Below the pieces are notes generated by a model that worked only from the letters and a program-made list of their open reading frames with translations, was not told the DNA's origin and made no database searches. The position numbers were made by a program, and so were the translations under genes. Of a stretch of DNA of 64,000 nt, positions 7,772-39,485 are shown piece by piece. Location of the stretch: NCBI RefSeq assembly GCF_053078305.1, contig NZ_CP166879.1. One strand, 5' to 3'. How positions within the stretch are numbered: the stretch's first letter is position 1; every line of letters begins with the position of its first letter.

Positions 7772-8179
7772 TTATTGATGTTTGTTACGTTTGCGAGCTT
7801 CTAGTAGCTCGGTGAATAGGCGATTAAAATTCTCAACGCGGGCACGGAGTTCGCTGATCTGTGCTTGCTGCTCTGATTTTGGAAGTGCGCGATACAATCG
7901 CAACATCTCCAACTCATCTTCCGATAAGTCTAAGGCGCTGTTGAGTGCAACTGGTGGATCTGGTGTTTTATCCTCGTCACCAAACAGTATCCAAGTTGGT
8001 GAACATTGCAATACCTCAGCTAGGCGATGCAAATTTTGCCCGCGCGGGGCTGTATGGTCGCTTTCCCATAGTGAAATTGATGAGCCAGATACGCCAGCAG
8101 CTTTGCTTAAATCGTTTTGACTTAAACCAACCTGTTTGCGTCTTTCTCTAATTCGTTGACCTAAAGTTTTCTCGTTCAT
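7772..8179 (-). CDS. dicA: DicA-like HTH (XRE) repressor
   Basis: 135 aa, N-terminal HTH, ...LQCSPTWILFGDEDK... as in DicA. Confidence 0.8.
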   Translation of the reverse strand: MNEKTLGQRIRERRKQVGLSQNDLSKAAGVSGSSISLWESDHTAPRGQNLHRLAEVLQCSPTWILFGDEDKTPDPPVALNSALDLSEDELEMLRLYRALPKSEQQAQISELRARVENFNRLFTELLEARKRNKHQ

Positions 8180-8256
8180 ATTTAGATATCTTAATAACCC
8201 TTGACTTGAGATTCCTTGAGTGATTACTATTGAGAAAACTCAAGCCTGGAGGGGTG

Positions 8257-8484
8257 ATGTTTAAATCAGACGTAATTAATTTTTATGGGACGAAAGCCAA
8301 AGTAGCGAAAGCTGCTGGTGTTGATCCATCTGCTGTTTCTCAATGGGGGGAACTGGTCCCTGAAGGTCGCGCGATGCGCCTGCAAGAGGCATCCGGCGGG
8401 GAGCTTCAGTATGACCCCAAAGTTTATGACGAATATCGTAAGACGAAGCGGGCGGGGCGGGTGAACAATGAAAATCACTCCTGA
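8257..8484 (+). CDS. dicC: DicC-like Cro-type regulator
   Basis: Divergent from dicA; ...LVPEGRAMRLQEASGGELQYDPKVYDEY...; GGAGGGG RBS. Confidence 0.7.
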   Translation: MFKSDVINFYGTKAKVAKAAGVDPSAVSQWGELVPEGRAMRLQEASGGELQYDPKVYDEYRKTKRAGRVNNENHS

Positions 8485-8989
8485 ACAGGTTTGCGAGGCT
8501 CTGGATGCCTGGGTATGCAGACCAGGAATGACACAGGAGCAGGCGACGATATTAATCACCGAAGCATTCTGGGATCTGAAAGAGCGCCCGAACATCGATG
8601 TTCAGCGTGTCACGTTTGATGATGGCGCGGTTGATCAACGGGCGCTTGGCGTTAACCGGGTGAAGATATTCGAACGCTGGAAGGCTATCGACACCAGGGA
8701 TAAGCGTGAAAAATTCACGGCGCTGATTCCGGCAATTATGGAGGCTATCCGGATTAGTGATTTCAGGTTGTACCGCGAAATTACTGACGGAAAAAGCATT
8801 ACGTACATGATTGCCGGGTTAAACAAAGAATATGGCGATGTGGTGGAGTCCGGGCTGCTTTTTGCAGATCCAGCTGTTGTGGAACGTGAGACAGACGAGC
8901 TTATAGAAAAAGCAATCGCTTTCAAGCGTGCCTATCGTCACCAGTACCAACAAAAAGCCGGATGGAATTATGAGCCTTCTTTTTGCTGA
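8468..8989 (+). CDS. YdaT-like (CII-like) regulatory protein
   Basis: 173 aa directly after Cro-like gene; resemblance to YdaT is from memory. Confidence 0.4.
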   Translation: MKITPEQVCEALDAWVCRPGMTQEQATILITEAFWDLKERPNIDVQRVTFDDGAVDQRALGVNRVKIFERWKAIDTRDKREKFTALIPAIMEAIRISDFRLYREITDGKSITYMIAGLNKEYGDVVESGLLFADPAVVERETDELIEKAIAFKRAYRHQYQQKAGWNYEPSFC

Positions 8990-9935
8990 ACGCCCGCTGG
9001 TTATAAACACACAGCTGGCGATGAAGATTGGTTTAAACGAAGCCATTGTGTTGCAGCAACTGCATTACTGGTTAAGGGATACCAGTTCCGGCATGGAATG
9101 TGATGGCGTTCGCTGGATTTACAACACAACGGAACAATGGCTGGAACAGTTTCCGTTCTGGTCAGAGTCAACGTTAAAGCGTGCGTTTGCAAGTCTGAAA
9201 GCGCTGGGGCTTTTGCGTAGCGAAAAGCTCAATAAATCGAAGCGTGATATGACTAATTTTTACACAATTAACTACGATAGCGCGCTTTTAGATGATGGCA
9301 AAGTGAACGAATCCATCGGGGCAAAATGCGCCACTCCATCAGGTCAAAATGACACGATGGAAGAGGTCAAAATGAAACGTTCCATTGGTTCAAAACGGCC
9401 CAATGTCATCAGGTCAAAATGGCCCGATGATCCTACAGAGAATACAACAGAGAATACAACAGAGAATAAAAAACTCTCTTGTCCGGACGCTTCGCAACCG
9501 GACGAGTTGACGGCTGAACAGGCGTTTTTAACCCGCCATCCTGATGCAGTTGTGTTCAGCGTGAAAAAACGCCAGTGGGGAACCCGGGAGGATTTGACAT
9601 GTGCGCAGTGGATCTGGGGGCGGGTTGTAAACCTGTACGAACAGGCTGCCAGTGACGATGGTGAGATCACGCGACCGAAAGAGCCCAACTGGACGGCGTG
9701 GGCCAATGACGTGCGCACAATGCGGATGCTGGATGGAAGAAGTCACAGACAAATTTGCGAAATGTTCAGTCGGGCACAACGGGATCCGTTCTGGATAAAA
9801 AACATCAAGAGCCCGGAAAAACTCCGTGAGAAATGGGATGAACTGGTTATTCGACTGTGGCGTGGTCCCGCGCAGCGTTGCGTGAATCATATTTCTGAAC
9901 CGGATACCGAAATTCCGCCGGGTTTCAGGGGGTAG
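8970..9935 (+). CDS. Replication initiator (O-like / replisome organiser)
   Basis: Precedes DnaC-like gene; internal 15-bp tandem repeats typical of ori inside O; start may be 8928. Confidence 0.6.
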   Translation: MSLLFAERPLVINTQLAMKIGLNEAIVLQQLHYWLRDTSSGMECDGVRWIYNTTEQWLEQFPFWSESTLKRAFASLKALGLLRSEKLNKSKRDMTNFYTINYDSALLDDGKVNESIGAKCATPSGQNDTMEEVKMKRSIGSKRPNVIRSKWPDDPTENTTENTTENKKLSCPDASQPDELTAEQAFLTRHPDAVVFSVKKRQWGTREDLTCAQWIWGRVVNLYEQAASDDGEITRPKEPNWTAWANDVRTMRMLDGRSHRQICEMFSRAQRDPFWIKNIKSPEKLREKWDELVIRLWRGPAQRCVNHISEPDTEIPPGFRG

Positions 9936-9941
9936 CGCACC

Positions 9942-10682
9942 ATGAAAAACATTACGTCAGGTGGTGTTCTGGCAAGAGTCAGCAGATTTGTGCCGCAGGA
10001 TGCAATCCCTCCGTACCGTACGGTGGCGGAGTGGCGGGAATGGCAGCTTGCTGAAGGGCGTAAGCGAAGCGAGGAGGTTAATCGTCTGAATCATCAGACG
10101 CGGGTTGAAAAAATCATTAACCGCTCCGGTATCCAGCTGCTTCACCGGAAGTGTACGTTCGGTAACTACCGGGTGCAGAACGATGGTCAGCGCCATGCCC
10201 TGAGTCAGGCGAAATCCATTGTGGCAGAGCTGGAAGGCGGCTGTACGAATTTTGTTTTCAGTGGCAGGCCTGGCACAGGAAAAAACCACCTGGCGGCGGC
10301 TATTGGCAACCACCTTCTGGCGAAAGGTCGCAGTGTGATTGTGATAACAGTGGCGGATGTGATGCTGGCGTTACATGGCAGCTACGACAACAAAAACTCG
10401 GGCGAAAAATTTTTGCAGGGATTGTGTGGCGTTGACCTGCTGGTACTGGATGAAATTGGCATGCAACGGGATACGCGTAATGAGCAGGTCACGCTTAATC
10501 AGATTGTTGACCGCAGAACGGCATCGTTACTCAGTGTGGGGATGCTGACAAATCTTAATCATGCAGCGATGAATACACTTCTCGGCGAGCGGGTAATGGA
10601 CCGCATGTCCATGAACGGTGGTCGCTGGGTGACTTTTAACTGGGAGAGCTGGCGTCCGAACGTCAGCCAGCACAGGAACTGA
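9942..10682 (+). CDS. DnaC-like helicase loader (P-like, IstB-type ATPase)
   Basis: Walker [16 protein letters not shown] and LLVLDEIG box. Confidence 0.8.
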
Positions 10683-39078: not shown

Positions 39079-39485
39079 CAGCACAGATAGCCGCTTACGG
39101 GCGGCTGGTGGACGACCCGCAGGTAAAACAAACCAGCAAGGGCACACCGATGACGCTGGCGCGTATGGCGGTATCTCTGCCATGCAGCCAGGCACAGGAC
39201 GGGCAGGCTACGTTATGGCTATCAGTGATGGCATTTGGTAAGCAGGCCGACTTCCTGGCTAAACATCAAAAAGGCGATGTTGCCAGCGTATCCGGCACGA
39301 TGCAGGTAAGCCAGTGGACCAGACAGAACGGGGAAACGCGGCAGGGTTATCAGGTTATTGCAGACAGTGTAATCAGTGCCCGTGCTGCCCGTCCTGGCGG
39401 GAGCAGACGTACAACCACAGGCACACAGGGTAATCAGCCACCAGCGGGAGGCGATGACCCTTACGGTGACGGTATTCCGTTCTGA
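39075..39485 (+). CDS. SSB-like single-strand DNA-binding protein
   Basis: OB-fold-like N-terminus, Gly/Pro-rich tail ending DDPYGDGIPF. Confidence 0.55.
   Translation: MTAQIAAYGRLVDDPQVKQTSKGTPMTLARMAVSLPCSQAQDGQATLWLSVMAFGKQADFLAKHQKGDVASVSGTMQVSQWTRQNGETRQGYQVIADSVISARAARPGGSRRTTTGTQGNQPPAGGDDPYGDGIPF

What the first reader, a model, noticed from the sequence alone, without database searches (positions are those of the whole stretch)
9430..9480. 15-bp tandem repeats inside the O-like gene, likely the prophage replication origin
ACAGAGAATACAACA is repeated about three times and followed by an A-rich stretch; it translates to the PTENTTENTTEN peptide repeat. Lambdoid origins lie inside the initiator gene as iterons plus an AT-rich segment.
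Basis: partly seen in the sequence, partly recalled or inferred. Interest (0 to 1): 0.35.

Follow-up and report, generated by a model that had tools for sequence, protein, structure and literature searches.

The report
Conserved 12-mer repeats in phage origin
The repeat is real (12 bp, not 15 bp) and most likely forms the easily opened half of a lambda-style replication origin buried inside a prophage initiator gene; the likely initiator-binding sites are six 23-bp repeats just upstream, and the same 12-bp DNA motif sits next to unrelated binding sites in phages of very different bacteria.

Summary
There is a perfect tandem repeat at 9435-9468, but its unit is 12 bp (ACAGAGAATACA, 2.8 copies), not 15 bp. 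It does encode TENTTENTTEN in an O-like initiator gene (8970-9935).

Six 23-bp dyad-symmetric repeats (9291-9429) lie immediately upstream and resemble lambda iterons. The 12-mer array is the adjacent A-rich, purine-skewed, low-stability segment.

- **DNA-level constraint:** synonymous differences fall from about 0.5 to about 0.1 across 9291-9506, while amino-acid differences do not fall.
- **Protein context:** this stretch encodes a segment predicted to be disordered.
- **Modular inheritance:** Klebsiella phages keep the N-domain, the 23-mers and the 12-mers but carry a different C-domain.

Unexpectedly, ACAGAGAnTAC arrays (2-5 units in relatives with a regular 12-bp array) occur 5-15 bp downstream of iterons of quite different sequence. 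This holds in many phage initiator genes from Proteobacteria and Firmicutes. In Bacillus phages the units fall in different reading frames, so the motif is DNA, not peptide.

No experiment supports origin activity. What reads the 12-mer is unknown.

The parts
8970..9935 (+). O-like replication initiator gene (321 aa); the candidate origin lies inside it
   Evidence: ORF listing. PHROG 391 'replication initiation O-like', E = 8e-91. The same 966-nt CDS is annotated in relatives. There is no Pfam hit; lambda O's PF04492 is not matched.
8970..9290 (+). Coding region of the N-terminal winged-helix domain (aa 1-107), the presumed iteron-binding domain
   Evidence: AF2 model pLDDT is 70-87 for aa 10-105, with an H-H-beta-beta-H-H-beta-beta layout. 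Foldseek top hits are wHTH regulators and plasmid initiator N-domains (5kbj, 4pql, 4pt7), with weak E of about 0.04. The domain is conserved in phages of many genera.
9291..9429 (.). Six 23-bp iterons (9291, 9314, 9337, 9360, 9383, 9407), each with 10+3+10 dyad symmetry around AAA; core GGTCAAAATG
   Evidence: the repeat finder families D1/D2, spacing 23, 23, 23, 24. Dyad arm matches are 5-8 of 10. Four core matches with <=2 mismatches cluster within about 105 bp, against six scattered over the other 64 kb. Conserved out to Klebsiella phages. Relatives carry equivalent arrays.
9435..9470 (.).
   Evidence: TRF period 12, 2.8 copies, 100%. Copy number is 3 to 5 in 87 E. coli-type loci. The motif is conserved across genera and across reading frames.
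9430..9474 (.). A-rich, purine-skewed, low-stability segment (candidate DNA-unwinding element) containing the 12-mers and the A-run
   Evidence: GC 0.31 and top-strand purine 0.71, against 0.24 and 0.69 for lambda's AT-rich tract. Window 9433-9473 is one of the two least stable 40-nt windows of the gene: -1.154 vs a mean of -1.422 kcal/mol per step. GC minimum. Both strands are structure-free as ssDNA.
9478..9506 (.). Conserved inverted repeat CTTGTCCGG / CCGGACGAG on the right edge of the constrained zone
   Evidence: the repeat finder I9. GTCCGG and CCnGAC are invariant in 10 relatives. DNA hairpin -8.4 kcal/mol, z = -2.4. Synonymous suppression extends to about 9505.
9483..9935 (+). Coding region of the C-terminal domain, homologous to the lambda O C-terminal half, ending in a DnaT-like tail (aa 299-321, nt 9864-9932)
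   Evidence: BLASTP to lambda O: aa 140-294 vs 144-270, 35% identity, E = 6e-25. The tail matches DnaT: NCBIfam NF002770 positions 158-179, and PDB 6aep, 2ru8, 9zbt.
9942..10682 (+). DnaC-like helicase loader gene, the presumed partner of the initiator
   Evidence: NCBIfam PRK12377, E = 4.5e-141; DnaC equivalog model, E = 1e-89 but below its curated cut-off. Pfam IstB_IS21. PHROG 50.
7772..8989 (.). Immunity and early-right region feeding transcription into the origin: repressor (7772-8179, -), Cro (8230-8484, +), cII/YdaT-like (8468-8989, +)
   Evidence: Pfam HTH_3, P22_Cro and YdaT_toxin. PHROG 163 cII-like. A near-identical prophage in E. coli O26 RM10386 is annotated with dicC and dicB.

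Best explanation
Window 9291-9506 is a lambda-type replication origin embedded in the linker-coding part of a prophage initiator gene.

Shown by sequence:
- Six 23-bp dyad-symmetric iterons occupy 9291-9429.
- They are followed at once by three 12-bp ACAGAGAATACA units and an A-run (9430-9474).
- A conserved inverted repeat follows at 9478-9506.
- The whole stretch is constrained at the DNA level, while the peptide it encodes is variable and predicted to be disordered.

Inferred mechanism:
- Dimers of the initiator's N-terminal winged-helix domain bind the iterons and distort the DNA, like the lambda O-some.
- The adjoining 12-mer array is the strand-opening and helicase-entry site.
- The C-terminal domain (lambda-O-like, with a DnaT-like tail) brings in host DnaB through the DnaC-like loader encoded next door.

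The 12-mers are therefore the unwinding side of the origin, not the specificity iterons. The motif ACAGAGAnTAC is kept unchanged next to unrelated iterons in many phages. I therefore infer that its sequence, and not only its A+T content, is read by a conserved surface of this initiator superfamily or by a universal host replication protein. The most likely form is one melted strand. This last step is the least certain.
For: 1. **Position.** Only the C-terminal half aligns with lambda O, and the alignment starts in the linker. The repeats therefore sit where ori-lambda sits (lambda iteron annotation).
2. **Design match to lambda.** Lambda iterons ATCCCTCAAAACGAGGGA are spaced 20-24 bp and followed by an A-rich, strand-asymmetric tract (PMC7466680; PMC5043065). 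Here the iterons are CATCAGGTCA-AAA-TGACCTGATG-like and spaced 23-24 bp. They are followed by 45 bp with GC 0.31 and purine 0.71.
3. **DNA-level selection.** Synonymous differences among clade representatives are 0.09 inside 9291-9506 and 0.45 elsewhere. For three disjoint pairs the values are 0.10 and 0.54 (Fisher 1e-22). Amino-acid differences are equal or higher inside.
4. **Disordered product.** The encoded aa 109-178 have pLDDT of about 30.
5. **Modular inheritance.** Klebsiella phages share the N-domain, the 23-mers and the 12-mers but have an unrelated C-domain. The joint lies just after the inverted repeat.
6. **Conserved architecture.** The same two-part layout occurs in Erwinia, Pseudomonas, Klebsiella, Providencia, Bacillus and Staphylococcus phages (weaker in a Listeria phage), in a 16.4-kb Bacillus plasmid, and with degenerate units in a 15-kb alphaproteobacterial plasmid.
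7. **The 12-mer is DNA, not peptide.** All 30 Thr-Glu dipeptides in the units are ACA-GAG, against 1 of 19 elsewhere in the same genes. In Bacillus phages the units are 10-13 nt apart and fall in frames 0 and 2.
8. **Independence from iteron type.** An IMG/VR pattern scan returned 120 arrays. Of these, 118 lie mid-ORF. In 87% there are at least 3 chained repeats at 18-30 nt spacing in the 158 nt upstream, against 1% of control windows. At least eight visibly different iteron sequences were seen by inspection of the contexts, and the N-domains fall into 3 BLASTP groups.
9. **Stability.** Window 9433-9473 is among the two least stable 40-nt windows of the gene. Both strands are unstructured as ssDNA.
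10. **Copy number.** It changes only by whole units (3, 4 or 5) and is never below 3 in 87 E. coli-type loci.
Against: - There is no experimental evidence of origin activity or of protein binding for this element or for any close relative that I could find.
- The N-domain is not the lambda O N-domain: PF04492 is not matched. Binding to the 23-mers is therefore inferred from architecture only.
- The array is not uniquely unstable. An equally A+T-rich stretch lies at 9231-9271.
- At 31% GC the array is less A+T-rich than lambda's tract.
- A strongly conserved sequence is not required for a simple unwinding element, so a role other than melting (a binding site for a second factor) is possible.
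- The IMG/VR sample was selected by the motif itself and capped at 120 rows. It shows association, not frequency.
- The related sequences are not independent observations.
Confidence: 0.75

Rival explanations
1. One reading: the 12-bp (called 15-bp) repeats are the iterons that the O-like protein binds, and only the short A-run after them is the AT-rich segment.
For: They are tandem, perfectly repeated and inside an O-like gene. Copy number varies among relatives as iteron number does in Stx phages (PMC7466680).
Against: The units have no dyad symmetry, and they are short and contiguous. They are identical next to initiators whose N-domains and 23-bp repeats are entirely different, so they cannot carry initiator specificity. 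A better iteron candidate, with lambda-like dyad design and about 23-bp phasing, lies directly upstream. Its arm sequence differs between N-domain clades (GGTCA, GGGCA, GGACA).
Confidence: 0.07
2. The 12-mers belong to the origin, but as double-stranded sites or start signals for a second, universal factor rather than as an unwinding or ssDNA-capture element. Candidates are RNA polymerase (GAGAnT resembles a weak -10 hexamer, with A at position 2 and T at position 6) and primase (CTG on the bottom strand of every unit).
For: Nine or ten positions of the unit stay invariant across Gram-negative and Gram-positive phages while everything phage-specific changes. This is more than melting alone needs. 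Lambda replication needs transcription near ori, and O contacts RNA polymerase (abstract of PMC3017604, as listed; PMC5043065).
Against: The promoter scan finds nothing in the array. From general knowledge, primase trinucleotide preference differs between Firmicutes and Proteobacteria, whereas the motif does not. No data bear on this directly.
Confidence: 0.13
3. The repeat is only a slippage-prone, low-complexity peptide linker (TENT repeats) with no function as DNA. The origin, if any, consists of the 23-mers alone or lies elsewhere.
For: It encodes a segment predicted to be disordered. Unit number is polymorphic.
Against: Codon choice is fixed: 30 of 30 ACA-GAG against 1 of 19 elsewhere. 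The variable position is a non-synonymous one, giving N, I, T or S. In Bacillus phages the same DNA units are read in two frames and give different peptides. Synonymous differences reach their minimum (0.00-0.05) in the sliding windows covering the last iteron, the array and the A-run.
Confidence: 0.04

Closest known systems
ori-lambda inside gene O of phage lambda, and the six-iteron origins of Stx phages 933W and P27
   Same: - The origin lies in the middle of the initiator gene, in the linker between a DNA-binding N-domain and a C-domain.
- There are 4-6 dyad-symmetric iterons with an A-tract centre, spaced 20-24 bp.
- An A-rich, purine-skewed tract follows immediately, then an inverted repeat.
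- The C-terminal half of the protein is homologous (35% identity).
- Iteron number varies among relatives.

   Different: - The N-domain is not Phage_rep_O (PF04492), and the iteron sequence differs.
- The partner is a DnaC-like AAA+ loader rather than lambda P, and the protein ends in a DnaT-like tail.
- The A-rich tract is built of a sequence-conserved 12-bp repeat. Lambda has only one CAGAGAAT, at 39164.
DNA-unwinding elements with repeated sequence motifs: oriC and RK2 13-mers, and DnaA-trios
   Same: Short repeats lie directly beside the initiator-binding sites. Their sequence matters, not just their A+T content, and initiators hold one melted strand (PMC5043065, citing Wegrzyn 2014; the DnaA-trio comparison is from my own knowledge of Richardson et al. 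2016).
   Different: The motif, period (12) and initiator class differ. Here the motif is shared by origins with different initiator specificities. According to that review, the RK2 and oriC 13-mers are not interchangeable. No binding data exist for the 12-mers.
RepA_N-type plasmid replicons of Gram-positive bacteria
   Same: - The N-terminal domain is a winged helix.
- The origin repeats lie inside the central part of the initiator gene, and the C-terminal domains vary (from my own knowledge of Weaver 2009 and Schumacher 2014).
- The AF2 N-domain gives weak Foldseek hits to 'Rep-DNA complex' and 'initiator' N-domains 5kbj, 4pql and 4pt7.
   Different: There is no sequence-level match. The Foldseek E-values are only about 0.04. 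Membership was not established.
Lactococcus phage TP901-1 rep (ORF13) with its internal origin repeats
   Same: The rep gene is annotated as experimentally characterised, and direct repeats followed by an A-rich tract lie in the middle of the gene.
   Different: The N-domain is different and there are no CAGAGAnTA units. The 12-mer is therefore specific to one initiator superfamily and is not a general property of in-gene phage origins.

Membership tests
lambda-type origin (ori inside the initiator gene) | Located within the coding sequence of the initiator, between its two domains | tested here: met
   The repeats occupy codons 108-168 of the 321-codon gene. The N-domain ends at about aa 105 and the C-domain starts at about aa 179.
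lambda-type origin (ori inside the initiator gene) | Array of at least four iterons with internal dyad symmetry | tested here: met
   Six 23-bp repeats, with 5-8 of 10 arm matches, spaced 23-24 bp.
lambda-type origin (ori inside the initiator gene) | Adjacent A+T-rich, strand-asymmetric tract | tested here: met
   9430-9474: GC 0.31, purine 0.71, low nearest-neighbour stability.
lambda-type origin (ori inside the initiator gene) | Iterons are bound by the initiator, and the segment supports replication when the initiator is supplied in trans | not testable with these tools
   Needs EMSA or footprinting and a two-plasmid origin assay.
lambda O protein family (Pfam PF04492 Phage_rep_O) | N-terminal Phage_rep_O domain | tested here: not met
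   Lambda O scores 5.7e-36 for PF04492. The window protein and its isolated N-domain score nothing. BLASTP aligns no N-terminal residues.
lambda O protein family (Pfam PF04492 Phage_rep_O) | C-terminal domain homologous to lambda O | tested here: met
   35% identity over 155 aa, E = 6e-25.
lambda O protein family (Pfam PF04492 Phage_rep_O) | Works with a lambda-P-type helicase loader encoded downstream | tested here: not met
   The downstream gene is a DnaC/IstB-like AAA+ protein. In Qin-like relatives it is a DUF977 gene.
PHROG 391 'replication initiation O-like' | Full-length profile match | tested here: met
   E = 7.7e-91, aa 17-321 against profile positions 11-298 of 298.
Initiator superfamily carrying ACAGAGAnTAC arrays (defined here) | Winged-helix N-domain, then an iteron array, then at least 2 CAGAGAnTA units within about 15 bp, all in one ORF | tested here: met
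   Window. Relatives. IMG/VR scan: 85 of 120 arrays have a homologous N-domain upstream, and 118 of 120 lie mid-ORF.
RepA_N plasmid initiators | RepA_N N-terminal domain | tested here: inconclusive
   No Pfam hit. Only weak structural similarity of a medium-confidence model.

The most novel reading that the evidence does not exclude
The 12-bp unit ACAGAGAnTAC(T/A), repeated 2-5 times directly beside the last iteron, is a previously undescribed, sequence-specific origin element. It is shared by a large superfamily of phage, phage-plasmid and small-plasmid initiators across Proteobacteria and Firmicutes. It is independent of iteron specificity, C-terminal domain and helicase or loader partner. 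It would therefore be a phage counterpart of the oriC 13-mers or DnaA-trios, read either by a conserved surface of the initiators or by a universal host replication protein.
Probability: 0.35. Interest if true: 0.7.

Novelty: new variant of a known kind. Interest (0 to 1): 0.55.

Why it matters
- **Annotation of a common gene.** The gene is present in 2459 of 5426 complete E. coli genomes, usually annotated as 'hypothetical protein'. No origin feature appears in any relative's annotation that I retrieved. Locating the likely origin helps interpret prophage induction, phage-plasmid maintenance and origin-based interference.
- **A handle on origin opening.** A fixed 12-bp motif that accompanies many different iteron sets is a rare, directly testable handle on how strand opening and helicase entry are specified once the initiator has bound. 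The review read here calls origin opening 'still an open question' (PMC5043065).
- **A search tag.** The motif could serve to find in-gene origins in unannotated phage genomes.
- **An example of dual coding.** A disordered protein linker appears to be shaped by the DNA signals it carries rather than by its peptide sequence.

Tried and rejected
- **Pfam and NCBIfam on the initiator.** No domain hit apart from the DnaT-like tail.
- **PDB sequence search.** Only the tail matched.
- **Rfam on 8900-10000, both strands.** Nothing at E <= 1, so a known structured RNA is not the explanation.
- **Promoter and terminator scan.** No site in the array, and counts at the shuffle expectation.
- **DnaA box, IHF and GATC scan.** One relaxed DnaA box lies at 9258, in conserved codons. 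There is none in the array and no IHF site.
- **Full-text search for the 12-mer and iteron-core strings.** Only unrelated primer or guide sequences were found. Three further literature searches found no description of this origin family. The pIGRK/pHW126 plasmid origin (iterons plus a family-wide 'conserved region') is an interesting parallel, but its sequence could not be compared.
- **blastn of a synthetic 12-mer array against the phage collection.** No match, probably because of low-complexity masking.
- **TP901-1, whose rep gene and internal repeats are experimentally characterised.** It has iterons plus an A-rich tract but no CAGAGA units. I did not check P22, SPP1, phi80 or 80alpha.
- **The first codon-usage test was circular.** Units had been chosen by the DNA motif. 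I redid it selecting by the Thr-Glu dipeptide.
- **Recent recombination as the cause of low synonymous divergence.** Rejected, because amino-acid differences in the same segment are not reduced.
Full report
**1. The observation**

The sequence at 9430-9480 reads ATCCT ACAGAGAATACA ACAGAGAATACA ACAGAGAATA AAAAAC. Tandem Repeats Finder reports one array at 9435-9468, with period 12, 2.8 copies and 100% matches. The repeat finder gives the same 12-nt spacing. A 22-mer spanning two units occurs nowhere else in the 64-kb window, and never in 100 shuffles.

There are five copies of a 23-bp repeat at 9314-9429, spaced 23, 23, 23 and 24 nt. A sixth, weaker copy lies at 9291-9313.

**2. The gene and its neighbours**

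- ORF 8970-9935 (321 aa) matches PHROG 391 'replication initiation O-like' at E = 8e-91. It has no Pfam domain.
- BLASTP against lambda O aligns only the C-terminal half: aa 140-294 against 144-270, 35% identity, E = 6e-25. The alignment begins in the linker.
- Lambda O's N-terminal Pfam domain PF04492 is not matched.
- The last 23 residues (..ISEPDTEIPPGFRG) match the C-terminal tail of the host primosomal protein DnaT.
- The next gene (9942-10682) is a DnaC-like AAA+ loader.
- Upstream lie a repressor, a Cro and a cII/YdaT-like gene.
- A 99.7% identical gene lies in a lambdoid prophage with DicB/DicC-type immunity in E. coli O26 RM10386.
- The gene occurs in 2459 of 5426 complete E. coli genomes. 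It also occurs in the isolated phages mEp460, HannyBb and PhiR42_1.

**3. Anatomy compared with ori-lambda**

Lambda's annotated iterons (ATCCCTCAAAACGAGGGA and variants) start 20, 24 and 23 bp apart. They are followed by an A-rich tract and then a palindrome. The iteron plus AT-rich organisation inside gene O is described in PMC7466680. The strand asymmetry of the AT-rich tract is described in PMC5043065.

The window shows the same design:

- **Iterons.** Each 23-mer is a 10+3+10 dyad around AAA, for example CATCAGGTCA AAA TGACACGATG, with 5-8 of 10 arm matches. It shares the central TCAAAAYG with lambda.
- **A-rich tract.** The 45 bp after the last iteron, which contain the 12-mers, have GC 0.31 and top-strand purine 0.71. 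Lambda's tract has 0.24 and 0.69.
- **Stability.** Window 9433-9473 is one of the two least stable 40-nt windows of the gene. Both of its strands are unstructured as single strands.
- **Inverted repeat.** A conserved inverted repeat follows at 9478-9506.

The layout therefore matches lambda: iterons, then the A-rich tract, then an inverted repeat.

**4. Evidence that the DNA, not the peptide, is under selection**

I built a codon alignment of six clade representatives: the window, two E. coli prophages, two IMG/VR clades at about 67% protein identity, and a Klebsiella phage.

| Segment | Synonymous differences, 15 pairs | Synonymous differences, 3 disjoint pairs | Amino-acid differences, 15 pairs | Amino-acid differences, 3 disjoint pairs |
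|---|---|---|---|---|
| 9291-9506 | 0.09 | 0.10 | 0.28 | 0.30 |
| Rest of the gene | 0.45 | 0.54 | 0.22 | 0.28 |

Synonymous differences are counted per codon that encodes the same amino acid in both sequences. Fisher's test for the three disjoint pairs gives 1e-22. Amino-acid differences are equal or higher inside the segment. Recent recombination would lower both kinds of difference, so it does not explain the pattern.

An AlphaFold model built on 18 homologues gives three parts:

- a winged-helix N-domain (aa 10-105, pLDDT 70-87);
- a helical C-domain (aa 179-297);
- a linker at aa 109-178 with pLDDT of about 30, which is exactly the part encoded by the repeats.

Foldseek places the N-domain among wHTH regulators and plasmid initiator N-domains, but only weakly.

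**5. Relatives**

- **Copy number.** Among 87 E. coli-type loci the 12-mer array has 3 units in 83 (one of them with a variant unit), 4 units in 2, and 5 units in 2. It is never absent.
- **Modularity.** Klebsiella phages Kp4882-3 and ST147-VIM1phi7.2 keep the N-domain, the 23-mers and the 12-mers, yet have an unrelated C-domain. The joint lies just after the inverted repeat. The N-domain and the repeats therefore travel as one module, as expected for an initiator and its origin.
- **More distant N-domain homologues.** The same two-part layout occurs in Erwinia PEp14, Pseudomonas AF and USP_25, Klebsiella SopranoGao, Providencia PSTCR8lys, Staphylococcus phage 96 and two Bacillus phages. It is weaker in a Listeria phage. 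The arrays have 22-24-bp dyad iterons with cores such as GGGCAAAWTGCCC, GGTCAAAATGACC or GGACAAAATGGCC. They are followed within about 15 bp by one to four [A/C]CAGAGAnTA units. No such units were evident in Stenotrophomonas phage StM171, and only a weak unit-like match in Vibrio phage F23s1.
- **Small plasmids.** A 16.4-kb Bacillus plasmid shows the layout too. A 15-kb alphaproteobacterial plasmid, where the gene lies close to parA, has degenerate units.

**6. The 12-mer is a DNA motif**

- Selecting by peptide rather than by DNA, all 30 Thr-Glu dipeptides in the units of 11 genes are ACA-GAG. Only 1 of the 19 Thr-Glu dipeptides elsewhere in those genes is.
- The variable position of the unit is a second codon position, giving N, I, T or S. 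Synonymous third positions are fixed.
- In Bacillus phages the units are 10-13 nt apart, fall in frames 0 and 2, and give different peptides.

**7. The 12-mer does not track iteron specificity**

- Of these arrays, 118 lie inside a long ORF (median 313 aa), at about residue 155, in the same codon phase.
- In 85 there is a recognisable homologue of the window's N-domain upstream.
- In 87% of testable cases at least three chained repeats at 18-30 nt spacing lie in the 158 nt upstream. The figure for control windows is 1%.
- The iterons are of many unrelated sequences. Examples are CCGCAAACAnGnnTGCGGAAA, TTACGTTGAAACGTAAnAGGGG, GTACCACCCTCCTACGTT, CCCAATTTCGCGGAG and AGGTAAAAATACCTCATCGTC.
- The N-domains fall into three BLASTP groups, and none has a Pfam family.
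- Over 105 distinct contexts the consensus is (C/T)TT-ACAGAGAnTAC(T/A). The third unit, which the search pattern did not select, is unit-like in 78 of them.

Lambda itself has a single CAGAGAAT, at 39164 in the palindrome to the right of its AT-rich tract. BLASTP aligns lambda's Ser-Glu-Asn there with a Thr-Glu-Asn unit of the window. TP901-1 has a different N-domain and lacks the motif.

**8. Mechanism**

What the sequence shows: the anatomy, the DNA-level constraint, the joint inheritance of N-domain and repeats, and the conservation of the motif.

What I infer:

- N-domain dimers bind the six dyad iterons and form an O-some-like complex.
- The adjoining 12-mer array opens.
- The C-domain and its DnaT-like tail recruit DnaB through the DnaC-like loader. 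In Qin-like relatives that lack this gene, the host loader would do this.

The unit sequence is invariant while every phage-specific part changes. I therefore think it is read specifically, most likely as one melted strand. This would parallel the RK2 and oriC 13-mers (PMC5043065) and the DnaA-trios (my own knowledge). RNA polymerase (GAGAnT as a weak -10) and primase (CTG on the bottom strand) are alternatives that I could not test.

**9. Known or new**

A lambda-type origin inside an O-like gene is textbook, so the finding as written is an ordinary new member of a known kind, with a miscounted period and the wrong repeat called the iteron.

Three things go beyond that:

- The initiator N-domain is not the lambda O family and has no curated family.
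- The unwinding side of the origin is built from a sequence-conserved 12-bp repeat.
- That repeat is shared by many origins with unrelated iterons, in phages of distant hosts.

Full-text searches for the motif strings and for this origin family found no description. Older subscription literature was not searchable, so prior description cannot be excluded. I rate it a new variant of a known kind.

**10. Verdict**

- The repeat is real, with a corrected period of 12 bp.
- 'Part of the prophage origin' is well supported by comparative evidence (confidence 0.75) but not by experiment.
- 'These are the iterons' is not supported.
- The conserved 12-mer is the interesting part and is directly testable.

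Noticed in passing
window 9864-9932 (aa 299-321 of the O-like protein): The C-terminal tail ..ISEPDTEIPPGFRG matches the C-terminal tail of the host primosomal protein DnaT (NCBIfam NF002770 positions 158-179; PDB 6aep, 2ru8, 9zbt). A similar (I/V)PxGFR(G/S) ending also closes the Klebsiella-phage variant, which has an unrelated C-domain. The gene pair O-like + DnaC-like mirrors the host dnaT-dnaC pair. This suggests a shared helicase or loader docking peptide.
   Followed up: partly
window ~9500-9510; L002, L003, L227: There is a mosaic joint immediately after the origin. Klebsiella phages and a 41.7-kb Klebsiella plasmid keep the N-domain and the origin but carry a different C-terminal domain ('conserved phage C-terminal domain'). 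The following gene is a Dam methylase instead of a DnaC-like gene.
   Followed up: partly
window 9478-9506: The conserved inverted repeat CTTGTCCGG/CCGGACGAG (DNA hairpin -8.4 kcal/mol, z = -2.4) lies where lambda has its palindrome to the right of the AT-rich tract. In the enterobacterial relatives examined, TCTTGTC follows the 12-mer array and encodes a conserved Cys.
   Followed up: partly
window 9231-9271: A second low-stability segment lies on the left side of the iterons. It contains an exact match to the relaxed DnaA-box consensus (TTTTACACA at 9258-9266). It lies in well-conserved codons (NFYTINY), so it may be coincidental.
   Followed up: no
L010 665-672 (lambda 39164-39171): Lambda ori contains a single CAGAGAAT in the EcoRI-site palindrome just right of its AT-rich tract. 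BLASTP aligns lambda's Ser-Glu-Asn there with a Thr-Glu-Asn unit of the window protein. It may be a remnant of the same motif.
   Followed up: partly
L001, L004, L005, L007, L009 (mEp460 and Qin-like E. coli prophages): In the 88%-identical relatives the O-like gene is followed by a DUF977/LygF gene rather than a DnaC-like loader. The loader gene is therefore an exchangeable accessory of this initiator.
   Followed up: no
L225 (Bacillus weihaiensis 16.4-kb plasmid) and L226 (Paracaedibacter 15-kb plasmid): The same initiator N-domain with internal iterons occurs in small plasmids. The units are clear in L225 (CCAGAGAATA, ACAGAGAATT, ACAAAGATTA) and degenerate in L226, where the gene lies close to parA. 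This is consistent with the gene plus its internal repeats forming a self-contained replicon.
   Followed up: partly
window 9429-9432: A GATC (Dam) site straddles the junction between the last iteron and the 12-mer array. Three more GATC sites lie in the C-domain coding part.
   Followed up: no
window 19758-20009: A cluster of three tRNA genes (Met-type CAT anticodon, Arg-TCG, Arg-TCT) lies downstream. The near-identical RM10386 prophage has three tRNA genes, annotated Ile, Arg and Arg, downstream of its antitermination-protein gene. No ORF of 150 aa or more, other than a 167-aa one at 20107-20610, follows them before 21647.
   Followed up: no
window 8970-8989: The cII/YdaT-like ORF (8468-8989) overlaps the start of the initiator gene by 20 nt. 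The same overlap is annotated in all E. coli relatives fetched except strain JNE070796 (L008), where the two genes do not overlap.
   Followed up: no
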